Of a DNA stretch of 64,000 bases, positions 6,591 through 18,651 are shown piece by piece. The DNA is taken from assembly GCA_036008605.1 (NCBI GenBank), contig DASYNL010000045.1, positions 67,855-131,854 of the forward strand, in the 5' to 3' direction. The notes under the pieces are model-generated. The model was not told where the DNA came from. It saw nothing but the letters and a program-made list of their open reading frames with translations, and made no database searches. How positions within the stretch are numbered: the first letter of the stretch is position 1; every line of letters starts with the position of its first letter. The position numbers and the translations under genes are program-made. This stretch comes from Solirubrobacteraceae bacterium. GTDB lineage: Bacteria; Actinomycetota; Thermoleophilia; Solirubrobacterales; Solirubrobacteraceae.

Positions 6591-6662
6591 GGACGCGTAG
6601 CTCAGTGGGAGAGCGCTCGCTTCACACGCGAGAGGTCGCAGGTTCGAAACCCGCCGCGTCCA
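6591..6662 (+). tRNA. tRNA-Val (anticodon CAC), CCA not encoded
   Basis: Acceptor GGACGCG/CGCGTCC; D arm GCTCAGTGGGAGAGC; anticodon arm CTCGC-TTCACAC-GCGAG; T loop GGTTCGAA. Confidence 0.95.
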
Positions 6663-6747: not shown

Positions 6748-7071
6748 GTGATCCTCATGGATGACGACATCGAGCGTGCCGCGCGTACGCTGGCCGAAAC
6801 CGCAGGATCGCCAGTGCGCGTGATCCTTTTCGGCTCGCACGCACGCGGAGAAGCGCGCGCCGGGAGCGATCTCGACTTCCTCGTAATCGAGCCCGAAGTG
6901 TCCGACCGCCACGCTGAGATGGTGCGCCTGAGAAGTGCACTGCATGGCATGCGCCGACCGATCGACGTACTCGTCTACAGCGAGGCACAGGTAGATGAGT
7001 GGGGCGAGGCACGGGGCTCCGTACTTCACGCCGCGCTTTCCGAGGGCAGGGTGCTTGTCGAAGCTCGATGA
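6748..7071 (+). CDS. Minimal nucleotidyltransferase (MNT) antitoxin-like protein
   Basis: VILFGSHARGEARAGSDLDFLVI (GSxARG..SDxD motif). Confidence 0.88.
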   Translation: MILMDDDIERAARTLAETAGSPVRVILFGSHARGEARAGSDLDFLVIEPEVSDRHAEMVRLRSALHGMRRPIDVLVYSEAQVDEWGEARGSVLHAALSEGRVLVEAR

Positions 7072-7474
7072 ACGAGATGTAGCCGACGCTCTCCTGGCCA
7101 AGGCAGGTGGCGATGAGGCTGGACTGCGCGCACTCGCAGACAACCCTGACGTGCCTGACCATGTCGCCGGCTTCCTCGCGCAGCAAGCGATCGAGAAGGC
7201 GCTCAAGGCAGTTCTCACAGCGCGCGACGTGCAGTTTGAGCGCAGCCACGACATCGACTACCTATGCGACCTGATCGAGAGCGCCGGGCTGACTCTGACG
7301 CCAGAGCTGAAGTCTGCCGTCGCGCTAACGCCGTGGGCAGTCGAGTTTCGTTACGCCGACCCTTACGACGTGGCCCCACTCGATCGGACCGAGGCGTTGA
7401 CGACCGTCGTCGCCGTGCGAGAATGGGCCACCGAGACCATCAAGTCTTCCAACGGAGACGAAACTCCTCACTGA
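7055..7474 (+). CDS. HEPN domain protein (partner of MNT)
   Basis: FLAQQAIEKALKAVL...RSHDIDYL...RY; overlaps the MNT gene. Confidence 0.85.
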   Translation: MSKLDERDVADALLAKAGGDEAGLRALADNPDVPDHVAGFLAQQAIEKALKAVLTARDVQFERSHDIDYLCDLIESAGLTLTPELKSAVALTPWAVEFRYADPYDVAPLDRTEALTTVVAVREWATETIKSSNGDETPH

Positions 7475-7586: not shown

Positions 7587-8186
7587 GTGTGTCGTACAGG
7601 CGTTGAGCGCTCGTTGGTTCCGTCAACCACACCAAGCGTCGCTCCGAGTCAAATGGTTGACATGTCTAAGGGAGCGCGAGGCAAAGCGGTCAGTCGCAAA
7701 CCTTCGATCGTCTATTCGGCGATCGTCGTTGTCAGCCTGGCGATGACAGTCCTTGGCGCCGTCGTCGCCGTCATCGGAGTCTCAAGTGGCGGCCTGTTCA
7801 GCGCCAGTATTGGCGATGCACACGTCAAGACCACCAGCGTGGGGCTCTCCATAATGGTGGTGGGGGCATTGCTCGACTTGGTCCCGCTCACCGGCGACCT
7901 CTCCGACATTCAGCCGGAGGAGTACACACGCCAAGTCGTCGAGGCGATGATCAGCTACGCACCCCAGCTAACGCCCACCCGATGCGAACAGGCACTCATA
8001 TCCACCGCCGTGCCCGCCAGCTATCAGGCGGGGAGCCAGTGGCCCACAGGGAAGCCAACGGTCAACCTCGCCAGCGCCTTCCGCAATGTCGGCTTGGGGT
8101 GGCTGGTTGAGGAGGGCCTGACGAACAAGGCAGTCGCTGAGCGACGGCGCAGCGGACGGGTCCCGCCAGTGGTGCGGGGTTACTGA
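7587..8186 (+). CDS. Hypothetical protein, possibly a chimeric remnant (two TM helices plus subtilase-C-terminus-like segment)
   Basis: Hydrophobic helices then ISYAPQLTPTRCEQALISTA..GKPTVNLASAF; resemblance judged by eye only. Confidence 0.3.
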   Translation: MCRTGVERSLVPSTTPSVAPSQMVDMSKGARGKAVSRKPSIVYSAIVVVSLAMTVLGAVVAVIGVSSGGLFSASIGDAHVKTTSVGLSIMVVGALLDLVPLTGDLSDIQPEEYTRQVVEAMISYAPQLTPTRCEQALISTAVPASYQAGSQWPTGKPTVNLASAFRNVGLGWLVEEGLTNKAVAERRRSGRVPPVVRGY

Positions 8187-8276
8187 GAGATTCGCTCAGC
8201 GCGACCATTGCGTCGGGGTCGGGGACGCAGTCCTATCCGGGTCGGCAGCATCGCCACGCGCCAGACGAGAAGTGTG

Positions 8277-8651
8277 TTAGATCAGCCGATACCGCCCGCG
8301 TTCCAGCCGCACGACTCGGGACTGCCGATCCTGAACCTGCTTAGCCAACCAGTTCTTGACCGAGGAGGCCGGCACCGACATCCCGAGGAACTCTTCGACC
8401 TCGGCATGGACGTCGCGTACCCTCATAGGCTTGCCAGCATCGGCCAAGACACGCTCGATGGCCTTGGGCACGATGCCACCACGGAGCTTACGGTCCTGGC
8501 GAACTGAAGGACGAGGAGCCGCGTCGCTGGCCACAAGCCGGTCCAACTTATCGGACAACTGGCGTAGCCGCTCTTGGATCTCCGGGTTCGAATAGCACCC
8601 AAGCAGCCCCATTTGTGGGAGGAGACTCGCAGATATCTTGGGGCGCTTCAC
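8277..8651 (-). CDS. Hypothetical winged-helix-like protein reading across the att-like repeat
   Basis: AIERVLADAGKPMRVRDVHAEVEEFLG..SSVKNWL..VVRLERGRYRL; N-terminus QMGLLGCYSNP spans 8585-8625. Confidence 0.5.
   Translation of the reverse strand: MKRPKISASLLPQMGLLGCYSNPEIQERLRQLSDKLDRLVASDAAPRPSVRQDRKLRGGIVPKAIERVLADAGKPMRVRDVHAEVEEFLGMSVPASSVKNWLAKQVQDRQSRVVRLERGRYRLI
8585..8625 (+). repeat. Degenerate direct repeat of the tRNA-Val 3' end plus downstream flank (att-like)
   Basis: GGTTCGAA-tagc-ACCC-aagcagcc-CCATTTGT-GGGAGGAGA versus 6641-6677 GGTTCGAA-ACCC-gccgcgt-CCATTTGTAGGGAGGAGA. Confidence 0.7.
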
Positions 8652-8980
8652 GCTAACCCGTCAGTCGCGTTATCTGTCGTCTCGGCGGACAAGACGGATA
8701 GCGTCACTGCGGACAGCATGCCGACGAGAACACCGGTAGCCGACCACAGTTGCAGCCAGAGCGGTGTCGCATCTAGCAAAAGCCCGGCCATGGCCGCCCC
8801 CTCACCCAGAAGCATGACAAAGAGGCCGTAGACCCAGTAAAACGTCTTGAATGGCAACGCTCCGCCCCCTTTGTCAGCACGTGGCTGCACAACGACCGCA
8901 ACGAAGAGAACAGGGATCGCTGTTCCACAGACAAGGTAGAAATTTTGTAGATGCGCGGAAAGGGCGTCGCTCGCCATCAT
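8648..8980 (-). CDS. Small hypothetical membrane protein (about 3 TM)
   Basis: 110-aa hydrophobic ORF. Confidence 0.4.
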   Translation of the reverse strand: MMASDALSAHLQNFYLVCGTAIPVLFVAVVVQPRADKGGGALPFKTFYWVYGLFVMLLGEGAAMAGLLLDATPLWLQLWSATGVLVGMLSAVTLSVLSAETTDNATDGLA

Positions 8981-9265
8981 CGTCTCGCCTCATTCGCACC
9001 ACACGAGATATTCCCTGCACAGGCAGAGCAACTCCCTGCCGGCGCGTGCTCGACGCCCTGCTCGAGCCGGGCGAGGCGGGCGAGGCGGCCATTACGGACG
9101 CTGACCGAGGGTTGCCAGTTACGCGGCAGGCCGTCTTCGTGGTCCGCGCTGCGTGGCATGGGCGATCTTCGACGATCCAGATCACAAGTACCGGACGCTC
9201 GAAGGAGGGTAGCTTCTCGATCGAGGTGAGTACCGACTTGATGTCCATCCGACGCCCGAAGCATC

Positions 9266-10006
9266 ATGCACGCTATGAGCGCTTCGGACACCAGTGTGGC
9301 GGGGACCGACCCTAAGGCCGTCGTCCTGCTCTCAGGTGGCCTGGACTCGGCCACCGCGCTTGCGATAGCCCAAAGCGAGGGCTATGAGCCTTACGCCATC
9401 TCGTTTAGCTACGGCCAGCGTCACGCTGTCGAGTTGGAGGCTGCCCGCGCCGTGGCCGAGACGGCTGGGGTCGCGCGTCACATTGTCGTCGAGATCGACC
9501 TGAGGGTCTTCGGGGGGTCTGCGCTGACCTCTGACATAGCAGTGCCCAAGCACAATTCTGCCTCCGAACTTACGGATGACATCCCGATCACCTACGTGCC
9601 AGCTCGCAACACGATCTTCCTCTCCTACGCTCTCGCGTACGCAGAGGTGCTAGAGGCTGACGACATCTTCATCGGGGTCAATGCGCTCGACTACAGTGGC
9701 TACCCCGACTGCCGCCCCGAGTACATTCGTGCGTTTGAGGCGATGGCCAATCTGGCTACGAAGCGTGGCGTCGAGGGCGGCAGCCTATGCATCCATACGC
9801 CGCTCATCGATCTCACGAAGGCCGAGACGGTCCGCCGCGGGCTTGCTCTAGGTATCGACTATGCGCAGACGCGGTCGTGCTACGACCCCGCAGCCACCGG
9901 CGAGGCCTGCGGCCATTGCGATTCTTGCTTGTTGCGCTTGCGCGCGTTTGCGGAGAACGATCTCTTCGACCCCGCGCCCTACCAGCCCCAGGCTGGGGTC
10001 GCCTAG
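9266..10006 (+). CDS. queC: 7-cyano-7-deazaguanine (preQ0) synthase
   Basis: [52 protein letters not shown]. Confidence 0.96.
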
Positions 10007-10010
10007 CCGC

Positions 10011-10772
10011 ATGCTCACGACACCAGCAACCCCAACCCGTCGGCATACGGCGGGCGCCGTAACGCTACCTGTGGTCGAGATCTTCGGCCCGACCATTCAA
10101 GGCGAGGGTCCGGATGCTGGCGTGCCCGCCTACTTCGTGCGCTTCGGGGGATGCGACTACCGCTGTATCTGGTGTGACTCGATGCACGCCGTCGACCCCG
10201 TGGAAGTTCGGTCGAACGCCGAGCGCCTGACGGCAGAGCAGATCATCCAGCGAGTAACAGAATTGCCGCCCGGCCCCGACCTTGTCGTGCTCTCCGGCGG
10301 GAACCCCGCATTGCTCGACCTCGGTGCACTCGTCCTCGCACTCAGGCGCGAAGGCAAGCGTGTCGCGGTCGAGACGCAAGGAAGTCGCTGGTGCGCCTGG
10401 CTCGCCGACGTCGACCGACTCGTTATTTCCCCCAAGCCACCCTCCTCGGGCATGGCGGGTCCCGACGAGTTGATTGCGCTGCGGGCTTTCTTGGGCAACG
10501 TGACCTCTGCCTCCACACCGGCACTGAAGATAGTCATCTTCGACCAGGCTGATCTCGACTGGGCAGCCACGTGCCATAGCAACTATCCCCAACTGCCTCT
10601 CTTCCTCTCCGCCGGCACCGATATCGGCCTGCCCGAGGAGAAGACACTGACTCGCCTGCGCGAGCGCTACCGTTGGCTGTGCGAGACGGTCTCCCGCCGG
10701 GCCGACCTCCGCGCCGCGAGCGTCCTGCCGCAGTTGCACGTGATCGCCTGGGGCACGGCGAGGGGAGTTTGA
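10011..10772 (+). CDS. queE: 7-carboxy-7-deazaguanine synthase (radical SAM)
   Basis: [27 protein letters not shown] (CxxxCxxC), [25 protein letters not shown]. Confidence 0.95.
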
Positions 10773-10774
10773 AG

Positions 10775-11140
10775 ATGGAGCTCTTCAAGGAGTTCACCTT
10801 CGAGGCGGCCCATCGCCTGCCGGGTGTACCCCCAGACCACAGGTGCGCACGGCTGCACGGGCATTCCTACCGTGTGCAAATACACGTCAGTGGCGAAGTC
10901 GACCCCACATCTGGCATGGTCATGGACTTCGCTGACATCAAGGCCGCGTTCAAGCCGATCATCGATGAACACCTCGACCATTACTACCTCAACGATGTTG
11001 CCGGACTGGAGAACCCAACGTCGGAGAACCTGGCCCGCTGGATCTGGCACCGGCTTAGCCCCACCCTGCCCCAGTTGAGTGCCATCGAGGTGCGTGAGAC
11101 CTGCACCTCTGGGGTCATCTACCGCGGTGGGCACGAGTGA
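10775..11140 (+). CDS. queD: 6-carboxytetrahydropterin synthase
   Basis: [45 protein letters not shown]. Confidence 0.95.
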
Positions 11141-11958
11141 TGAGCCTGCTCGTGGAGGGAACGCTGCCTGACGTCCAAGCTGGCGACGACGAGCGGGGGG
11201 TCGCCCTCGATGAGGTGGGTATCTCTGGCTTGCGCTACCCGGCAACGATCGAATGCGCCGATGGTAGTTTGCAGCAAACAATCTGTGAGGCTCAACTCGC
11301 CGTTGCGCTAGCGGCGCCGACACGCGGCACGCACATGAGCCGTTTTGTCGAGGCGTTGCATGAGCAGCGCGGGACCCTCTCGCCTGTGAGTATTCTCGCG
11401 ACGGCCCGCGGCCTTGCCGCCCGGCTTGACGCCGACGAGGCGGCGATCCGGTTCGCTTTCCCGCTGTTCCTCTCGCGTAAGGCGCCCGTCACCAGGCAGG
11501 AGGCGCTGCTCGGTATCGACTGCACGCTCACGGCACGGTCTAGGACGAATGGTGCTGGGGAGGTACGCATCGGAGCCCGCGTGCCGGTGACAAGCCTATG
11601 TCCCTGCTCCAAGGAGATCGCTGACTACAGCGCCCACTCCCAACGCGGACACGTGCTTATAGAGGTGCTTGACGGCCGTTGGCCAATCGGCGCCCCCGGG
11701 CTCTGGCCGGAGGAGTTGCTGACCGTCTGCGACCAGGCGGCATCGGCGCCGATCTATCCCCTACTCAAGCGCCCTGATGAGCGCCATGTGACGATGCTTG
11801 CCTACGATCGCCCCGCGTTCGTAGAGGATCTTGCGCGCGATGTCGCCCTAGCGCTAAAGGCAGACGAGCGGGTTGACGGCTTCGACCTCGAAGTCGTCAA
11901 CCAGGAGAGCATCCACGACCACCAGGCATTTGCGCGACTTGAGTGGAGGCGCCTGTGA
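11137..11958 (+). CDS. folE2: GTP cyclohydrolase I type IB
   Basis: [36 protein letters not shown]. Confidence 0.92.
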
Positions 11959-12620
11959 GCGGAAACATCCTCGTTGTTAGCTCGTGCACAGCGACCAAGC
12001 TTGCAACGCCCAACAGACGATCGCGCTGGGCTGAGTCGCTGTATGCCGGTCAGCAGCACACGCGCCTGATGCGAGGGATTCAGGAGTATCGCGATGCCGG
12101 GCAGCCTGCCGGCGAACTGCGCTTCCGCATCCTCTCAGCTTTCCACGGGCTTATGCCTCCGCGCAGACCGATCTCCTCCTACAACCATTCGTTCTCCGGA
12201 CTGCCAGCCGCGGCCATCCGCCAGCAGGGCCGTGAGAAGAATGTGCCCGAGGATCTCCGCATGCTGCTGCGCAAGCCGTTCGATATCGGCTTGCTGCTAC
12301 TCGGCGATCCCTATCTGCGCGCTTGTGACCTAGACGCCGAGGTCAAGCTGGGAGGCCACCTCCTCTGCTTTTGCAGTCCCGCTGTCGCGCGGCGCATGCC
12401 AGAGATCGACGGACTACGCACGATCCCCCTTGCCAACGCCGAGGCGCGGCGCTTCTCCTGCGGTCTGATCGCACTCAAGGGCGAGCTCGGAGGGCGTCTA
12501 CTCTCACAACTTGTAGCTGAACCGGAAAAGATTGACCGCTTCACTGCGCCAAACGCAGATATCCTGCGCCAGCTAGACGAGAGCCCAGGCCTGTGCCGAT
12601 CGCAGTCCATCGCGGCGTAG
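11955..12620 (+). CDS. YaaA/DUF328-like protein, probable DpdC equivalent
   Basis: VVSSCTATK..AESLYAGQQH..FRILSAFHGL..ISSYNHSF pattern; lies between folE2 and dpdA. Confidence 0.65.
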   Translation: MSGNILVVSSCTATKLATPNRRSRWAESLYAGQQHTRLMRGIQEYRDAGQPAGELRFRILSAFHGLMPPRRPISSYNHSFSGLPAAAIRQQGREKNVPEDLRMLLRKPFDIGLLLLGDPYLRACDLDAEVKLGGHLLCFCSPAVARRMPEIDGLRTIPLANAEARRFSCGLIALKGELGGRLLSQLVAEPEKIDRFTAPNADILRQLDESPGLCRSQSIAA

Positions 12621-12622
12621 CG

Positions 12623-13882
12623 ATGGACTTCTACTTCCCCGACAGCCAGGATCAGGTAGACCCCGACTTCGACTTCGACGCCGAAGTCCATCCCCCGTTT
12701 CACGTGCGTCAGCGAGACGATCGCTACGCACACGAGGTTCACGATCAGCCGCCTTACAGCGGAATGCTCATTTCCAAGACGATGGTTGACGGCTACGGTG
12801 GGGCCGGTCGCTACACCGCTGCTCAACGCCACCGCCTCCATAGACTGGGAGCGCACACGTTCTTCCGACTGCCGGAGGGGCTCAAAGTCATCGGCGACTG
12901 TGGCGGCTTCAGCTATGTCACGGAGGACAAACCCCCTGTCACGGTCGAAGAGGTCATTGACTTCTATGAGCACACCGGAGTTGACGAGGGCGTGTCCGTC
13001 GATCACGTGATTCTCGGCTATCAAGCTGACTCGGCTATGAGCCCACCGCCGGAGGAGTGGATTGATCGCCAGGTGCTCACCCTCGAACTGGCTGCCGAAT
13101 TCTTTGCCGAGCACAAGCGTCGCGGCTGCCAGTTTACGCCGATGGGCGCGGCGCAGGGCTGGAGTCCCGAGTCCTACGCCGTGTCGGTGCAACGTCTACA
13201 GGAGATCGGCTATCGACGCATCGCGCTCGGAGGGATGGTGTCTTTGAAGTTCGAGCAGATCGTGACCTGCCTGGAGGCTATCGCCAAAGTGAGGCTCTCC
13301 GGTACGAGTTTGCACCTGCTCGGCATCAGCCGGGCCGAGCACTATGCGACCTTTCACGAACTTGGTGTACGCAGCCTCGACTCGACTTCGCCGTTCCGTC
13401 AAGCGTTCAAGGACGACAAGGACAACTACTACACGACGGGCGACAACCACGTTGCGCTGCGCATCCCGCCGTCGGAAGGGAATCCAAGTCTGCGTGGACG
13501 CATCCGCGCAGGCCAACTCGACCAGAGCGTCGTCGTCAAGGCGGAGAAGCGCGCGCTAGACGCAGTGCGTGCTTACGACCGGGGCACCGGCACGCTGACG
13601 GTTGCTCTCAAAGCGTTGAGGACGTACGAGCGGATCTTCGATATCAAAGAACGCGACCGCACCGAGGTGTACCGTGCGATGCTCGAAGTGCGCCCCTGGC
13701 AGAGGTGTCCGTGCGCAGTCTGTCGTCGCTGGGGCGTCGAGGTGGCGATCTTTCGCGGTACCGAGCGCAACAAGCGCCGGGGCTTTCACAACCTATGGGT
13801 CTTCAATCAAGTGGCTCAGGAGCAGATAATCGGGATGAGTACGGTCAAGATAGATACGGAGGCGATCAGTGAACCGGCCTGA
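12623..13882 (+). CDS. dpdA: TGT-paralog DNA base-exchange enzyme DpdA
   Basis: FYFPDSQDQVDP N-terminus; TGT catalytic motifs IGDCGGFSY, SVDH, LHLLG, DSTS; RRGFHN; clustered with preQ0 genes and DGQHR proteins. Confidence 0.9.
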   Translation: MDFYFPDSQDQVDPDFDFDAEVHPPFHVRQRDDRYAHEVHDQPPYSGMLISKTMVDGYGGAGRYTAAQRHRLHRLGAHTFFRLPEGLKVIGDCGGFSYVTEDKPPVTVEEVIDFYEHTGVDEGVSVDHVILGYQADSAMSPPPEEWIDRQVLTLELAAEFFAEHKRRGCQFTPMGAAQGWSPESYAVSVQRLQEIGYRRIALGGMVSLKFEQIVTCLEAIAKVRLSGTSLHLLGISRAEHYATFHELGVRSLDSTSPFRQAFKDDKDNYYTTGDNHVALRIPPSEGNPSLRGRIRAGQLDQSVVVKAEKRALDAVRAYDRGTGTLTVALKALRTYERIFDIKERDRTEVYRAMLEVRPWQRCPCAVCRRWGVEVAIFRGTERNKRRGFHNLWVFNQVAQEQIIGMSTVKIDTEAISEPA

Positions 13883-15032
13883 TCTACGCCTGGACGCACT
13901 TGAGGTCCGCCAGGGCAAGCGCCGGCTCTATCAGTTCGCTGTAGACGGCAAGCAGCTCGCTGGCATCAGTACCGTCTCGCGCATTCACCGTGACCATGAG
14001 GGTCACATCGGCGGCTACCAGCGTCCTGAGGTCCTACGTCACGTCAAGGCCATCCGCGACTACCTGGAGAGCCCCGGCGCGCTCATGCCAAATGCGATCG
14101 TGATCGCGTTCGACTCGCGCGTGCGCTTCGAGCCGGCGCCAGGCATAAAAGCTAGCGCCGGGAGCGCCGCGGGGAGCATCGTCATCCCAGCGCCTGAGCC
14201 GGACTCGCCCAATGCGCCGGGATGGATCGTGGACGGCCAGCAGCGTGTCGCGGCACTCAGGGACGCACAGCTCGACAACTTTCCCGTGCCGGTCGTAGCG
14301 TTTATTACTGACGATCTGCGCGAGCAGCGCGCCCAGTTCATCCTCGTCAACAACACCAAGCCCCTGCCCAAGGGCCTGATTCACGAGCTCCTGCCAGACA
14401 CCGAGGGGCATTTGCCTCATGCACTACTACGCAAGCGTTACCCGTCGAAGCTACTCTCACTGCTCAACCTACTCCCCGACTCACCGATGGCGGGGGCGAT
14501 AAAGACCCCCACTATGCCCGACGGACGCATCCGCGACAACTCAGTGCTGAAGATGATCGAGAACTCGATCACCGACGGCGCCCTGTACCGCTACCGGGAT
14601 CCCAGAACGGGCGAGGGCGACACCAGTCGGATGGTCCAGGTCCTGTGGAACTTCTGGGAAGCTGTTGCTGCCACCTGGCCTGACGCTTGGGCATTGCCGC
14701 CTCGCAAGTCGCGACTAACGCACGGTGTAGGGATTGTCGCGCTTGGCTTCGTTATGGACGAGATCACCGAATGTTGTTCGGTCGGATCTGAGGTACCCAC
14801 AAGCAAGACATACTCGGAGCACCTTAAGCCGCTTGTTGAGATTTGTGCCTGGACACGAGGACAGTGGGCCTTCGGGCTTCGCGAACACCGAGCTTGGAAT
14901 GAGCTTCAGGTCACTCCAAAGGACATTCTTAAGCTGACGGAGCTTCTTCTGCGGGCCTATAGAGCCAAGAATCTAGTCGAGAAAGACCGTGAATTGCATG
15001 CATCTAAGGATTCCATCGCAGCGCTTCAGTAG
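13869..15032 (+). CDS. dpdB: DGQHR/DndB-like protein DpdB
   Basis: GYQRPEV, MPNAIVIAF, WIVDGQQR, QFILVNNTKPLPKGLIHELLP; overlaps dpdA. Confidence 0.88.
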   Translation: MNRPDLRLDALEVRQGKRRLYQFAVDGKQLAGISTVSRIHRDHEGHIGGYQRPEVLRHVKAIRDYLESPGALMPNAIVIAFDSRVRFEPAPGIKASAGSAAGSIVIPAPEPDSPNAPGWIVDGQQRVAALRDAQLDNFPVPVVAFITDDLREQRAQFILVNNTKPLPKGLIHELLPDTEGHLPHALLRKRYPSKLLSLLNLLPDSPMAGAIKTPTMPDGRIRDNSVLKMIENSITDGALYRYRDPRTGEGDTSRMVQVLWNFWEAVAATWPDAWALPPRKSRLTHGVGIVALGFVMDEITECCSVGSEVPTSKTYSEHLKPLVEICAWTRGQWAFGLREHRAWNELQVTPKDILKLTELLLRAYRAKNLVEKDRELHASKDSIAALQ

Positions 15033-15093
15033 CGGTTGTAATAGTAATTCATACCTCAATATCAGCTCCCTTACCTACGTACAGGGTTAAAAT

Positions 15094-16665
15094 ATGGATA
15101 CTTACGATGTCATAAGATTTAGTCAATACGAGTCCGATTCTGAAGATGACGATCTACTTCTGTTCGCTGCGCCAGCTAAGCAAATCTGGCGTTGGGCTGG
15201 CATCCCACGTAAGGGATGGGATGTACGTATGCTTTTCCAGCGATGGATCACTCCAGCGCGCCAACAGGAAGTAACGGCGTTTTGGGATTACGCATCGCAG
15301 TCAGTACCGCACGAACGACAAGGAAAGAATTACATCCTCGGGCCGACCGCCCTAACAGTTGCGGTCTTCGATTCACCGGAGGTCGAGTCCGGCAAGATCG
15401 CGCTCAAATACGAGCCGCCATTCGCCATATCCGATGAGCGGCCACGGAAGCTGTCACTTGCCGCAACTGTAGTGGTTGATCGTATGTCGAAGCGCCTCAC
15501 TCCCCAGGAAAAGGAGGTGCTTCTAGGTGTTCGATCAGAGCCAACCTGTGAGTTCCCCGATGTATCCCCGAACTGGGTACTACAATCTCTGTGCCAAATA
15601 GTCCAGGCAGCCTCAGACCCTGAATATTTCGTCCAGACCAACAATTTGACGGATGGGGATGTAGATGGACTAATAGAGTCCCTAGAGGCACTTTGTCGTC
15701 CTGCCCTCGTTGTCGATGGCCAGCACCGCTTGTACGGTGCCGCGCACGCTGCGGCAGATATATGGCTCCCCATAGTAGCCATGCCTAACAGTCCGTGGAC
15801 ACAGGGCATCTACCAGTTCATTGTGATCAACGAGAAGGCCCAGCGGGTTGATACCGGGCTACTAACGGACATTTTCGGCAGTTCACTAACTCCAACTGAG
15901 CAGAAGGCCATCGAAAGTCAACTTGATCGAAGCGGGGCACGAGTCCAGGAGCGGATCGCGGCAGTGGTGGCCGCCAGGGATGAGGACAGCCCCTTTTATG
16001 AATTGGTTCGCTTTTCTCTCCAAGGTGAGTCGCAAGGGATTATTCCGACGCTCACGGTCCGTCAACTAATAGAGGGTGGTAGTCGCGGCGCACGGGGATG
16101 GAGGAGTGATACCGAGTTCTACACCATGTACGTCAAGCCTACGTTTCCCAATGCAGCAGAGTGGGATAGTTGGACCGATGGCAAGTGGAAGGACTATTGG
16201 TTCGCGTTCTGGGCTGAGGTACGGGACTATTACAACGCACAAGCCAGCAACGAACTATGGACAAAGGAGGCGCAGACTAATTTGACCAAGGCTGTATCGC
16301 TACGTCTATTTCAGAGGCTGTTTATCGAAAAGATGATCGAGAGTATCCGCGACGTGGTAAAAACGCGCGAGACGCTGGCGGCCATGCTCAAAGACGAGGA
16401 GCGGGCCGACGAGGCGGTAGAGGCACAAATCAAGGCGGTCGCCCTGCCAGACTCCATCAATGAGTTTAGAACAAGAGTGCGAGAGCAGTTTCTAGAGAAG
16501 GGGGTGCCTGTCCGGGTTTTTGAGCGTCCCTGGGTGAGCAGCCTCGATGACCAGCAAGGTCAACAGTATCTTTATGAAGAGTTTCTGAAGGCTTATGAGT
16601 CCTCTCAGCGAGATACGCTCTACTACGCACGCAATAAGGATGTCTTTGCCGTAACAGAAGACTGA
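15094..16665 (+). CDS. Second DGQHR-domain protein (523 aa, with an internal insertion)
   Basis: FQRWI..GPTALTVA..(long insert)..LVVDGQHRLYG..QFIVINEKAQRV. Confidence 0.82.
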   Translation: MDTYDVIRFSQYESDSEDDDLLLFAAPAKQIWRWAGIPRKGWDVRMLFQRWITPARQQEVTAFWDYASQSVPHERQGKNYILGPTALTVAVFDSPEVESGKIALKYEPPFAISDERPRKLSLAATVVVDRMSKRLTPQEKEVLLGVRSEPTCEFPDVSPNWVLQSLCQIVQAASDPEYFVQTNNLTDGDVDGLIESLEALCRPALVVDGQHRLYGAAHAAADIWLPIVAMPNSPWTQGIYQFIVINEKAQRVDTGLLTDIFGSSLTPTEQKAIESQLDRSGARVQERIAAVVAARDEDSPFYELVRFSLQGESQGIIPTLTVRQLIEGGSRGARGWRSDTEFYTMYVKPTFPNAAEWDSWTDGKWKDYWFAFWAEVRDYYNAQASNELWTKEAQTNLTKAVSLRLFQRLFIEKMIESIRDVVKTRETLAAMLKDEERADEAVEAQIKAVALPDSINEFRTRVREQFLEKGVPVRVFERPWVSSLDDQQGQQYLYEEFLKAYESSQRDTLYYARNKDVFAVTED

Positions 16666-16703
16666 CATTATGTGCTTGCGAGCACAGCAGCGGAAGGTGC
16701 CGT

Positions 16704-17579
16704 GTGCTCACTAATGAAGTCTTGGACGAGGGCGAGTTCTTCGCTGCGCTTGAGGCGTTGTGTGCGAGTGTCGAGGAGTCTGAGGCGCGCGCAATCCGAA
16801 TAGCTCTCACATCCGTGATAGCTCGTCTTGTGGAGACGCGTTTGTTGAGCGACCAGCAATTGCGCGAGGTGGCTCGATACCCTGATGTGTATCTAGAGCA
16901 GTCTCGACAGATCGTAGAAGATAGAGTCGCTGAGCTCGGCTTGAGCACGTATGTGGACGAGAATGACGTACGTTACCTCGCGCGATTGTTGACTTCGGGG
17001 GTTCCGCATCGGACTAGACCCGAGCCAGTGGGCACTGAGCTTATCTCCGTACTGTTTAGAGAGAGCTATCGCAATGGGGGCCGGGAGCTTCGCTGTGCTA
17101 TTTGCGGCTTTCATTTCCGCGAAGGCGACGTGTCGGAGGCTCGACGGGAACTCGCACGACAATTCGAATTCGTATATGCAGCAGAATTTGATCCAAGACG
17201 GGTCGCGGATGGATTGAAGCCACCACATAAAACTGCCCTACACATCGACCATGTCATACCACGCTTGGGGTGGGGTCCGACTCGGGCTGAGAACTTGCAG
17301 GTGCTATGCGAGTTCTGTAATCAGGGCAAGCTATCGTTCCGTCGCGGCTTGGAGAACCTCTCGGGCTTTGCTGCAGCAAGCGTTCCGCCACTGGATCGCC
17401 TGCCCGCGGAGTGGGCGACACGACAAGCTGTCGTAGCAGCGCTCATGACCGCTCAGAGTAGTTGCGGAGCCTGCGGCACTCGTGCTGACCAGCGGGAGCT
17501 AACGGCAGTAGTGCAGGGCGAGTGGTTTGTACCGTGGATGCTCGAAGTACGATGCTATGACTGTGTCGAGAGTATTTAA
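16704..17579 (+). CDS. HNH endonuclease with Zn ribbons
   Basis: CAICG..LHIDHVIPRLGWGPTRAENLQVLCEFCNQGK; second CGACG..CYDC at the C-terminus. Confidence 0.85.
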   Translation: MLTNEVLDEGEFFAALEALCASVEESEARAIRIALTSVIARLVETRLLSDQQLREVARYPDVYLEQSRQIVEDRVAELGLSTYVDENDVRYLARLLTSGVPHRTRPEPVGTELISVLFRESYRNGGRELRCAICGFHFREGDVSEARRELARQFEFVYAAEFDPRRVADGLKPPHKTALHIDHVIPRLGWGPTRAENLQVLCEFCNQGKLSFRRGLENLSGFAAASVPPLDRLPAEWATRQAVVAALMTAQSSCGACGTRADQRELTAVVQGEWFVPWMLEVRCYDCVESI

Positions 17580-17802
17580 TTTAGGCGCAGCGGCAGAAAC
17601 CGGACCCGATTGTACGGCCGAGAAGGAGAGAACGATGATCGGGTCCAGCGTCCGTTCGCGGATCTCTCCAGAGGCCGCTCGCAGCTCCTCGTTTACCACT
17701 TCGTGTTCGGCCCCGACTCCACAGCAGGCTGCCCTCCTGCTCAGCGACCGCCGACGGCTTCGCACCAGAGTAAACCCTGGTCGAGAGACCTTAGCTAGCC
17801 AG

Positions 17803-18651
17803 CTATATCTTCTCTGCCGCCGCTCTTACGTGTGGCCCGAACTTGGTTCTCATCGCCACGGCGGACATGCTCTTGGCAGGGACTGTCACGCTGATCGCCA
17901 TCGGTCGAGTGCGGTCCGTGCGGGTGACGGCGCAAGCAATTGAGCGTACGCCGCACCCTCGCTCTTCGTCAAAAACGGAGAAGCCGACGGCGTAGATCGC
18001 CAGCAGTTGCTCTGCCAAGACAAGCCTCTTGGTGATAGCGCTGGGACCATTACGCTTGAATTTGAGTTCGGCGATCACCTCGCGCTGGTCGGGAGCGCTG
18101 AGACTGGCCATCAGCGCTCGGCCTATCGCGGTGCAGTATGCGGGCACATAGGCACCGACGTCGAGGCCGAGATCGGCCTCGTGCTGGCCGGGTCCGTGTG
18201 CGAACAGCCTCTCGGTGTAGAGCACTCGGACCCCTTCCAGCACCCCCATGCTGACGGTGTGGCCGGTCACTTCGCGCAGATCTTCAAGGATCGTTCTGGC
18301 GGCGGGCGTCTCTAAGCGCAGGGTGTTGATGAAATCGATACCTGGCCCGCCAGCGCTGCGGGCTAGGCGATAGCGACGGTCTTTGTCCTGCTCGAGATAG
18401 CCAAGCTCCACAAGCGTCTTCCCGTAACGGTGGGTGGTGGCGCGGCTGACCTCGAGGATGTCGGAGAGCTCGCTAATGCGCAACACAGGCCGGCGAGCAC
18501 TGAAGCACTCGAGCATCGCGACCCCATATTCCAACGAGCGAGAATATTTTGTCACCGGCTCAGGCCTGATGCGAGGCTCACGATCCTCAGAGGCCCCGTA
18601 CCCGTCATCTGTATATGGAGCTCCCCCTGCCTCTTGATAGCCCAAATCCAT
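17803..18651 (-). CDS. IclR family transcriptional regulator
   Basis: SRSLEYGVAMLECF..LRISELSDILEVSRATTHRY..LVELGYL; CTAIGRALMA; AISVTVP. Confidence 0.9.
   Translation of the reverse strand: MDLGYQEAGGAPYTDDGYGASEDREPRIRPEPVTKYSRSLEYGVAMLECFSARRPVLRISELSDILEVSRATTHRYGKTLVELGYLEQDKDRRYRLARSAGGPGIDFINTLRLETPAARTILEDLREVTGHTVSMGVLEGVRVLYTERLFAHGPGQHEADLGLDVGAYVPAYCTAIGRALMASLSAPDQREVIAELKFKRNGPSAITKRLVLAEQLLAIYAVGFSVFDEERGCGVRSIACAVTRTDRTRPMAISVTVPAKSMSAVAMRTKFGPHVRAAAEKI

What the first reader, a model, noticed from the sequence alone, without database searches (positions are those of the whole stretch)
9266..15032. Self-sufficient 7-deazaguanine DNA-modification operon (queC-queE-queD-folE2-dpdC-like-dpdA-dpdB)
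Seen: seven tightly packed genes with intact catalytic motifs. Known: FolE2, QueD, QueE and QueC make preQ0 from GTP; DpdA+DpdB exchange guanine in DNA for preQ0; DpdC (YaaA/DUF328-like domain) is linked to conversion to ADG. There is no queF, queA or tRNA tgt, so DNA rather than tRNA is the likely target. The type IB cyclohydrolase FolE2 and a compact 221-aa stand-alone YaaA-like gene before dpdA make it a distinct architecture in a soil-type actinobacterial lineage.
Basis: partly seen in the sequence, partly recalled or inferred. Interest (0 to 1): 0.72.

Follow-up and report, generated by a model that had tools for sequence, protein, structure and literature searches.

The report
Deazaguanine DNA-marking operon with compact DpdC
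Seven tightly linked genes should let this uncultured soil actinobacterium make the modified base preQ0 from GTP and swap it into its own DNA; this is a trimmed-down version of the already described Dpd self-marking system, not a new kind of system.

Summary
Window 9266-15032 carries seven co-directional, translationally coupled genes: queC, queE, queD, folE2, a 221-aa gene, dpdA and dpdB. Six of them match their families over the full model length and above the curated cut-offs. DpdA matches the crystallised Salmonella Montevideo DpdA at E = 4e-113 and keeps that enzyme's catalytic aspartates and zinc site.

The 221-aa protein is not recognised by DpdC, YaaA or DUF328 models. It is nevertheless a compact DpdC homologue:
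- It has the DUF6884 motifs CxxxK and LSAxxG.
- Its confident model finds YaaA as the best PDB fold.
- Profile-profile comparison with a canonical DpdC gives 94.7% probability.
- It sits in the slot that a canonical DpdC holds in another actinobacterium.

The island brings the only preQ0 pathway in the genome. True QueC and DpdA were found in 1 of 101 sampled genomes of the family. The host has tgt and queA elsewhere, but no queF was found. About 22 related actinobacterial loci, including cultured Solirubrobacter soli, keep the same seven-gene core, with different candidate nuclease modules downstream.

In other phyla the compact DpdC is fused to DpdA, and those loci have no DpdB.

Verdict: a variant of a known system, of moderate interest. 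No DNA chemistry was tested.

The parts
6591..6662 (+). tRNA-Val(CAC). It marks the left edge of the variable region that holds the island.
   Evidence: ARAGORN and Rfam at 66.4 bits. Synteny with two congeners (dnaX, unknown, FKBP, unknown) ends here. No repeated att-like copy of the tRNA 3' end was found in the window.
9266..10006 (+). queC, 7-cyano-7-deazaguanine (preQ0) synthase.
   Evidence: PF06508 at 256.7 bits and TIGR00364 at 210.8 against a cut-off of 150.3. SGGLDS PP-loop and four Cys. It is the only queC in the genome.
10011..10772 (+). queE, radical-SAM 7-carboxy-7-deazaguanine synthase (B. subtilis type).
   Evidence: TIGR03365 at 256 bits against a cut-off of 206.1, over the full model. 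CDYRCIWC cluster motif; an ATG at 10011 lies 4 nt after the queC stop.
10775..11140 (+). queD, 6-carboxytetrahydropterin synthase.
   Evidence: TIGR03367 at 113.4 bits against a cut-off of 89.25; PF01242 at 135 bits. An ATG at 10775 lies 2 nt after the queE stop.
11140..11958 (+). folE2, GTP cyclohydrolase IB.
   Evidence: NF010200 at 240.2 bits against a cut-off of 215; PF02649 at 257 bits over 1-260/260. SLCPCSK motif.
11955..12620 (+). Compact DpdC-like protein (221 aa) of the DUF6884 / YaaA-like fold. Its predicted role is conversion of dPreQ0 in DNA to dADG (inferred).
   Evidence: CxxxK (C15..K19) and LSAxxG motifs are invariant in 24 homologues. AF2 pLDDT 92, pTM 0.89. Best PDB fold is YaaA 5caj, E 1.2e-3. 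hhalign against a canonical DpdC gives 94.7%. More distant family members hit PADLOC DpdC models at 1e-8 to 1e-13. It holds the slot of canonical DpdC in genome G190. A GGAGG lies 7 nt upstream of the GTG at 11955.
12623..13882 (+). dpdA, DNA-guanine transglycosylase (bDpdA).
   Evidence: NF041059 at 542.6 bits; PADLOC DpdA at 545.6. E = 4e-113 to PDB 7UI4, with the equivalents of Asp95, Phe99, Asp130, Leu236, Asp256 and Phe265 and the CxCxxC..H zinc site conserved; the His181 position is Gln.
13869..15032 (+). dpdB, DGQHR (ParB/DndB-like) ATPase partner of DpdA.
   Evidence: NF041060 at 474.9 bits against a cut-off of 300; PADLOC DpdB at 478.3. DGQQR motif; a GGAGG lies before the GTG at 13869.
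15094..16665 (+). Second, divergent DGQHR-domain protein (523 aa), a candidate reader subunit of a nuclease module.
   Evidence: TIGR03187 at 40 bits, below the cut-off. Homologues follow dpdB in L004, L010 and L018. GC falls to 0.565 here.
16704..17579 (+). HNH endonuclease (291 aa), the candidate restriction nuclease paired with the 523-aa protein.
   Evidence: PF01844 at 30.1 bits against a cut-off of 21.4. HNH partners are also present in L004, L010 and L018.

Best explanation
This is the modification half of a Dpd-type (7-deazaguanine) DNA self-marking island, and it carries its own precursor supply. FolE2, QueD, QueE and QueC convert GTP to free preQ0. DpdA, driven by the ATPase DpdB, exchanges guanine for preQ0 at specific sites in double-stranded DNA. 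The compact DpdC homologue then most likely hydrates the nitrile of DNA-bound preQ0 to the amide (dADG). Its conserved Cys of the CxxxK motif is the probable nucleophile. The mark presumably protects host DNA from a linked nuclease module, which here is a second DGQHR protein plus an HNH nuclease in place of DpdD-K. The gene identities, conserved catalytic residues, operon coupling and co-occurrence are shown. The chemistry in DNA, the dADG end product, the Cys mechanism and the restriction role are inferred.
For: Six of the seven genes give full-length matches above the curated cut-offs. DpdA matches the crystallised S. Montevideo DNA-guanine transglycosylase at 4e-113 and keeps the active-site residues that PMC10164549 showed to be essential. 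The genes are translationally coupled. The compact DpdC-like gene sits directly upstream of dpdA, or is fused to it, in 31 of 35 loci spanning at least eight phyla. It is homologous to canonical DpdC and holds the same operon slot as canonical DpdC in genome G190. It has a YaaA-like fold, as Pfam's authors describe for DUF6884 (PMC11701544), and the GATOR-GC preprint (10.1101/2025.02.24.639861; published as PMC12235509) assigns DpdC to DUF6884. The host lineage otherwise lacks preQ0 synthesis: in 101 sampled genomes of the family, a full-length QueC and a DpdA occur only in this genome, apart from one split QueC in G064. queC, queD and queE are single-copy here and queF was not found. This explains why the island carries the whole pathway and argues against a tRNA role. 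Downstream of the conserved seven-gene core, related loci carry interchangeable nuclease or ATPase modules, as expected for restriction-modification-like islands.
Against: The 221-aa protein fails the DpdC, DUF328 and DUF6884 thresholds on its own. Compared with canonical DpdC it lacks an insert of about 30 aa and a C-terminal domain of about 60 aa, so the same activity is not assured. No DpdD was found in the genome, though that search had no positive control. The DGQHR+HNH pair follows the core in only 4 of about 22 loci, so its coupling to the mark is not proven.
Confidence: 0.75

Rival explanations
1. DNA is modified, but the compact DpdC-like protein is not a nitrile hydratase. It would be a DNA-binding or base-flipping accessory subunit of DpdA, or it would make a different derivative, so the final mark would be dPreQ0 or something other than dADG.
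For: In nine loci from other phyla the homologue is fused to the N-terminus of DpdA, and no DpdB lies within 10 kb. This suggests physical cooperation with DpdA rather than the independent action reported for Salmonella DpdC (PMC10164549). The protein lacks two segments of canonical DpdC. Pfam's authors predict a DNA-binding, base-flipping role for the DUF6884 member YfjM (PMC11701544). Some validated dpd islands are reported not to yield dADG (the GATOR-GC preprint 10.1101/2025.02.24.639861, citing the original PNAS study of dpd islands, which was not held).
Against: The CxxxK, LSAxxG, AExLYxG and YLxAC motifs are shared with canonical DpdC end to end, and the gene holds DpdC's operon slot. 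A fusion is also what one expects for two consecutive enzymes acting on the same flipped base.
Confidence: 0.2
2. The operon mainly supplies preQ0 for tRNA modification (queuosine or preQ0 in tRNA) through the chromosomal tgt and queA.
For: The genome has a canonical tgt and a queA, and the island holds its only queC, queD and queE.
Against: No queF was found, so preQ0 cannot be reduced to preQ1 (the genome is 94% complete). Relatives carry a tgt-like gene without QueC, so the lineage probably salvages precursors. The que genes are translationally coupled to dpdA and dpdB, and that linkage is kept in about 22 loci.
Confidence: 0.03
3. The island is an orphan modification cassette (epigenetic, or an anti-restriction cassette on a mobile island) with no cognate restriction partner. 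The adjacent DGQHR and HNH genes would be an unrelated defence gene pair.
For: The downstream modules differ among loci, and only 4 of about 22 carry the DGQHR+HNH pair. In L004, L010 and L018 the pair is on the opposite strand. GC content drops to 0.565 across it, suggesting a separate acquisition. Dpd islands without restriction operons are known (PMC12235509).
Against: Most of the alternative downstream modules again contain a DndB/DpdB-like protein plus a nuclease or ATPase. This recurrent theme suggests that they read the mark.
Confidence: 0.15

Closest known systems
Dpd system of Salmonella enterica serovar Montevideo (DpdA/DpdB/DpdC modification module; Thiaville 2016; PMC10164549)
   Same: DpdA is about 50% identical to the Salmonella enzyme (PDB 7UI4, E 4e-113) with the same catalytic residues. 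DpdB is an equivalog-level match. A DpdC homologue is present. The predicted chemistry is the same: preQ0 is inserted into DNA and then converted to dADG.
   Different: DpdC is a 221-aa minimal form that the DpdC HMMs miss. No dpdD-K genes are present (none in the window; no DpdD in the genome). The whole preQ0 pathway, including FolE2, is built into the operon. The DpdA His181 position is Gln.
Canonical actinobacterial dpd cluster in genome G190 (locus L050): queC-queE-queD-folE2-dpdC-dpdB2-dpdA-dpdB
   Same: The gene order is almost identical, including FolE2. DpdA and DpdB are each 50% identical to those of the window.
   Different: G190 has a full-length DpdC of about 300 aa (PDLC02817 at 216 bits) and an extra DpdB paralogue between dpdC and dpdA. 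The window has the compact form, which is 32% identical to it over 114 aa.
DUF6884 (PF21818) / E. coli YaaA (DUF328, PDB 5CAJ)
   Same: CxxxK and LSAxxG motifs. YaaA is the best PDB fold match for the model (probability 1.00, E 1.2e-3).
   Different: The window protein scores below the DUF6884 gathering cut-off (20.6 against 30) and does not match PF03883. The TM-score to YaaA is only 0.41. YaaA is a peroxide-stress DNA-binding protein, not a Dpd component.
Dpd islands without a restriction operon surveyed by GATOR-GC (PMC12235509)
   Same: dpdAB, with or without dpdC, together with preQ0 genes and no dpdD-K. HNH endonucleases are noted near some of these islands.
   Different: That survey found no Solirubrobacterales (the word does not occur in the paper) and describes neither a compact DpdC clade nor DpdC-DpdA fusions.

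Membership tests
Dpd 7-deazaguanine DNA modification system | DpdA: a TGT-fold DNA-guanine transglycosylase scoring above the NF041059 equivalog cut-off | tested here: met
   542.6 bits against a cut-off of 200; PADLOC DpdA 545.6 bits; E = 4e-113 to PDB 7UI4.
Dpd 7-deazaguanine DNA modification system | DpdA catalytic residues (Asp95 acid/base, Asp130, Asp256 nucleophile, Phe265) and the zinc site | tested here: met
   The alignment to 7UI4 shows GDCGGF, SVDH, SLDST, RQAFKD and CPCAVC..H. The His181 position is Gln, as in 25 of 29 related DpdAs.
Dpd 7-deazaguanine DNA modification system | DpdB: a DGQHR/ParB-like partner scoring above the NF041060 cut-off, adjacent to dpdA | tested here: met
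   474.9 bits against a cut-off of 300. It overlaps the end of dpdA by 14 nt.
Dpd 7-deazaguanine DNA modification system | DpdC recognised by the existing DpdC models | tested here: not met
   No PADLOC DpdC hit at E < 0.01. PDLC02818 finds nothing in the genome.
Dpd 7-deazaguanine DNA modification system | A DpdC homologue by profile comparison, motifs and operon position | tested here: met
   hhalign 94.7%, E 6e-8. More distant family members hit DpdC HMMs at 1e-8 to 1e-13. Motifs are shared end to end. It holds the same slot as canonical DpdC in G190.
Dpd 7-deazaguanine DNA modification system | The DpdD-K restriction operon | tested here: not met
   The downstream genes are a DGQHR-like protein and an HNH nuclease, with no PADLOC Dpd hits other than a weak DpdB match. 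NF041061 (DpdD) was not found in the genome, but that search had no positive control.
Dpd 7-deazaguanine DNA modification system | dPreQ0 or dADG present in genomic DNA | not testable with these tools
   This needs LC-MS/MS of nucleosides.
preQ0 biosynthesis pathway (FolE/FolE2, QueD, QueE, QueC) | All four enzymes above their curated cut-offs, with catalytic motifs | tested here: met
YaaA / DUF328 (PF03883) | A match to PF03883 above the gathering score | tested here: not met
   No hit for the protein or anywhere in the genome. Only a fold-level resemblance to 5CAJ was found.
DUF6884 (PF21818) | A score at or above 30 bits, plus the CxxxK and LSAxxG motifs | tested here: inconclusive
   The window protein scores 20.6 bits, but both motifs are present. 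Close homologues, including the S. soli protein, pass the cut-off (34.9 bits; many homologues).
tRNA-guanine transglycosylase (Tgt) | Scores above the PF01702 and TIGR00449 cut-offs | tested here: not met
   26.2 against 26.3, and 15.9 against 47.6. The real tgt is on contig C12 at 391 bits.

The most novel reading that the evidence does not exclude
The compact DpdC-like protein may be a physical partner of DpdA rather than an independent finishing enzyme. In at least nine loci from Planctomycetota, Chloroflexota, Acidobacteriota, Bacteroidota, Verrucomicrobiota, Myxococcota and Gammaproteobacteria it is fused to DpdA, and no DpdB is nearby. In the two loci examined further (Singulisphaera and an Alteromonadaceae MAG), a HerA-like ATPase and a UvrD-like helicase follow the fusion gene. 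On this reading the compact DpdC clade defines a second, undescribed branch of deazaguanine DNA-marking systems. In that branch the DUF6884 domain flips and processes the base together with DpdA, possibly replacing DpdB or yielding a mark other than dADG. The Solirubrobacterales operon would then be a chimera of that branch's DpdC with canonical DpdA and DpdB.
Probability: 0.2. Interest if true: 0.6.

Novelty: new variant of a known kind. Interest (0 to 1): 0.38.

Why it matters
It extends the Dpd deazaguanine DNA-marking system into Solirubrobacterales, which the word search of the largest published survey did not find. The host lineage has no preQ0 synthesis of its own, and that explains why the island carries the full pathway. 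It also defines a minimal DpdC of about 220 aa: 613 clusters at 50% identity score at or below 1e-10 with its profile, yet current DpdC models miss it. That minimal form could serve for mechanistic work on how a nitrile in DNA is hydrated. The fusion of this protein to DpdA in other phyla gives a testable hint that DpdC and DpdA act together. One cultured strain, Solirubrobacter soli DSM 22325, carries the same core, so the chemistry can be tested directly.

Tried and rejected
- tRNA-modification role. Rejected: no queF was found, the host family lacks QueC, and the operon is coupled to dpdAB.
- Membership of YaaA/DUF328. Not met by HMM.
- A solved DpdC or DpdB structure by sequence. None was found.
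- preQ1 or any other riboswitch upstream of queC. None was found; Rfam lists only the tRNA.
- Sigma-70-like promoters and terminators. Nothing above chance.
- A duplicated att site at the tRNA-Val 3' end, or an integrase. No repeat was found, and no integrase was seen among the ORFs scanned.
- Defining the right border of the island from congeners. This failed because synteny is lost after tRNA-Val in both.
- Conservation of the region upstream of queC (6.7-9.3 kb) in related loci. Not conserved.
- Reads for expression or modification signals.
- The original PNAS 2016 paper. Not held.
- The BREX-related 'BRC' systems with TGT (10.1101/2025.10.09.681413). Checked and judged a different system.

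Full report
**Observation.** Window 9266-15032 holds seven co-directional ORFs. Profile searches identify six of them at full model length and above the curated cut-offs:
- QueC: PF06508, 256.7 bits; TIGR00364, 210.8 against a cut-off of 150.3.
- QueE of the B. subtilis type: TIGR03365, 256 against 206.1.
- QueD: TIGR03367, 113.4 against 89.25.
- FolE2: NF010200, 240.2 against 215.
- DpdA: NF041059, 542.6 against 200; PADLOC, 545.6.
- DpdB: NF041060, 474.9 against 300; PADLOC, 478.3.

The most plausible start codons are 9266, 10011, 10775, 11140, 11955, 12623 and 13869. They leave junctions of +4, +2, -1, -4, +2 and -14 nt, with GGAGG boxes before the fifth and seventh genes. This is a translationally coupled operon. 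The expected motifs are readable in the translations: SGGLDS plus four Cys in QueC, CxxxCxxC in QueE, C..LHGH in QueD and SLCPCSK in FolE2.

**DpdA is a DNA enzyme, not a tRNA Tgt.** It matches the crystallised S. Montevideo 'DNA-guanine transglycosylase' (PDB 7UI4) at E = 4e-113 over 395 residues. The PDB chain carries a 20-residue tag offset. Allowing for that, all the residues that PMC10164549 describes as catalytic or essential are conserved: Asp95, Phe99, Asp130, Leu236, Asp256, Phe265 and the CxCxxC..H zinc site. The His181 position is Gln. That is natural variation, since 25 of 29 related DpdAs have Gln. The tRNA-TGT models score below their cut-offs. The genome's real tgt lies on another contig at 391 bits.

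**The fifth gene (11955-12620, 221 aa).** On its own it gives only a sub-threshold DUF6884 match (20.6 bits against a cut-off of 30). It gives no DUF328, no NCBIfam and no PADLOC DpdC match. PF03883 finds nothing anywhere in the genome. It is nevertheless a real and widespread family:
- 154 close homologues, all unnamed, were found; the few that carry an organism name are Solirubrobacteraceae MAGs.
- Its profile finds 940, 613 and 228 clusters at 50% identity with E at or below 1e-3, 1e-10 and 1e-30.
- The 24-sequence alignment has an invariant S-C-T-x-x-K and L-S-A-x-x-G. These are the two motifs that Pfam's authors give as hallmarks of DUF6884, a family they describe as distantly related to YaaA (PMC11701544).
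- The GATOR-GC preprint (10.1101/2025.02.24.639861; published as PMC12235509) assigns Salmonella-type DpdC to DUF6884. Older literature calls it DUF328-like (PMC5699537).
- An AlphaFold2 model is confident (pLDDT 92, pTM 0.89). Its single best PDB match is E. coli YaaA 5CAJ (probability 1.00, E 1.2e-3, TM 0.41), and nothing else comes close.
- More distant members of the same family hit five PADLOC DpdC models at 1e-8 to 1e-13.

A canonical DpdC was found in another actinobacterial genome, G190 (PDLC02817 at 216 bits over the whole model). It aligns to the family profile with 94.7% hhalign probability. It also shares the SCxxxK, AExLYxG, SAxxG, Y..F and YLxAC motifs end to end. The G190 cluster reads queC-queE-queD-folE2-dpdC-dpdB2-dpdA-dpdB. 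The 221-aa gene therefore sits exactly where canonical DpdC sits. Compared with canonical DpdC, the window protein lacks an insert of about 30 residues after CxxxK and a C-terminal domain of about 60 residues. I conclude that it is a compact DpdC homologue. Whether it has the same activity is an inference.

**Genomic and phylogenetic context.** The window is chromosomal, with dnaX on one side and flagellar genes on the other. The island lies just after tRNA-Val(CAC), behind an MNT-HEPN toxin-antitoxin pair. Two congeners keep the order dnaX, unknown, FKBP, unknown, but share nothing beyond the tRNA, and both lack the island.

In a sample of 101 genomes of the same family, DpdA above cut-off occurs only in this genome. 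The same is true of a full-length QueC, apart from one split copy in G064. In the own genome queC, queD and queE are single-copy. tgt and queA are present elsewhere, and queF was not found (the genome is 94% complete). The host lineage therefore appears to salvage queuosine precursors, and the island imports a complete preQ0 pathway. This supports the 'self-sufficient' reading and argues against a tRNA role.

**Related loci.** A scan of species-representative genomes with the family profile returned 35 loci. In 31 of them dpdA follows directly or is fused. Of the other four, one is cut by a contig end and two look degraded. About 22 loci keep the full queC-queE-queD-folE2-dpdC-like-dpdA-dpdB order. 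All are Actinomycetota, mostly Solirubrobacterales MAGs, and they include cultured Solirubrobacter soli DSM 22325. The architecture is therefore typical of a lineage rather than unique.

Downstream of dpdB the content varies:
- The 523-aa DGQHR-like protein plus HNH: the window, L004, L010 and L018.
- A DndB-like protein with HerA-like and AAA ATPases and an AlbA_2/PLD nuclease: L011, L012, L017 and L035.
- A 438-aa DndB-like protein: L007, L020 and L028.
- A GHKL ATPase: L005 and L006.

A conserved marking core with swappable nuclease and ATPase modules is what restriction-modification-like islands look like. No DpdD was found in the genome (that search had no positive control). I only confirmed that the pair recurs in 4 of about 22 loci.

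**Side observation.** In nine loci from other phyla the compact DpdC is fused to the N-terminus of a DpdA (687-718 aa). The hosts are Singulisphaera, Anaerolineaceae, Vicinamibacterales, Pontibacter, Verrucomicrobia, Chloroflexia, Anaeromyxobacter, Cesiribacteraceae and Alteromonadaceae. PADLOC gives DpdA about 400 bits and also hits DpdC. No DpdB or DGQHR protein lies within 10 kb. In the two loci examined, four conserved genes follow, including a HerA-like ATPase and a UvrD-like helicase.

By pairwise identity, the window's DpdC-like protein is nearer to these fused domains (about 41%) than to canonical DpdC (32%). Its DpdA, in contrast, is nearer to canonical bDpdA (50%) than to the fused DpdA domains (33-37%). 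This hints at module shuffling, but these are identities and not a phylogeny. I found no description of such fusions in the papers I could search. The TGT-containing 'BRC' system of 10.1101/2025.10.09.681413 is a different assembly.

**Mechanism and confidence.**
- Shown: gene identities, conserved catalytic residues, operon coupling, co-occurrence, and the absence of a host preQ0 pathway.
- Inferred from the established biochemistry of the families (PMC10164549): GTP is converted to preQ0; DpdA, with the ATPase DpdB, exchanges guanine for preQ0 in DNA; and the compact DpdC hydrates dPreQ0 to dADG.
- My own inference: the CxxxK cysteine is the nucleophile.

I put 0.85 on deazaguanine modification of DNA, about 0.55 on dADG as the end product through this protein, and 0.75 on the overall statement.

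**Novelty.** The Dpd modification module, islands carrying preQ0 genes, and islands without dpdD-K are all published (PMC5699537, PMC10164549, PMC12235509). The new elements are the compact DpdC clade that current models miss, the occurrence in Solirubrobacterales, and the alternative downstream modules. This is a new variant of a known kind. Interest is moderate (0.38), because a specialist would not be surprised by the operon itself.

Noticed in passing
L015:9992-12055, L033:7102-9189, L025:9995-12118, L021:6815-8902, L024:7027-9087, L026:9836-11914, L030:9998-12079, L019:9863-12019, L022:8510-10282: These are DpdC-like::DpdA fusion proteins (687-718 aa) in nine loci from other phyla. No DpdB or DGQHR gene lies within 10 kb. 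In L015 and L033 four conserved genes follow: an unknown of about 410 aa, a HerA-like ATPase, an unknown of about 600 aa, and a UvrD/GajB-like helicase. This may be an undescribed DpdB-less deazaguanine system.
   Followed up: partly
window 6757-7474: An MNT (nucleotidyltransferase, 6757-7071) and HEPN (6995-7474) toxin-antitoxin-like pair lies directly after tRNA-Val, at the left edge of the island. A HEPN paralogue lies on contig C44.
   Followed up: partly
L011:13157-19389, and the equivalents in L012, L017 and L035; L007:13806-15119; L005:13114-14532: The seven-gene core is followed by different modules in different genomes: DndB-like + HerA-like + AAA + AlbA_2/PLD nuclease; a 438-aa DndB-like protein; or a GHKL ATPase. 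The effector arms appear to be swappable.
   Followed up: partly
own genome G000: C12:83421-84563 (tgt), C15:77429-78499 (queA): The host has tgt and queA but no queF, and outside the island it has no queC, queD or queE. Sampled genomes of the family also lack a true QueC. The lineage looks like a queuosine-precursor salvager.
   Followed up: partly
window 14000-18000: GC content falls to 0.565, against 0.62-0.64 in the que/dpd genes and 0.66-0.68 in the flanks. This suggests that the DGQHR/HNH part was acquired separately and more recently.
   Followed up: no
L050:13449-14546 (genome G190): A canonical actinobacterial dpd cluster carries two DpdB genes, one between dpdC and dpdA (39% identical to the window's DpdB) and one after dpdA (50%). 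A large Hhe/PDC-S37-like helicase lies upstream.
   Followed up: no
window 11955-13882 compared with L015 and L050: The similarities are discordant. The DpdC-like protein is closer to the fused-type domains (about 41%) than to canonical DpdC (32%). DpdA is closer to canonical bDpdA (50%) than to the fused DpdA domains (33-37%). This may indicate a chimeric origin.
   Followed up: no
window 7587-9265: A 199-aa ORF and several shorter ORFs between the toxin-antitoxin pair and queC have no family match and are not conserved upstream of queC in related loci.
   Followed up: partly
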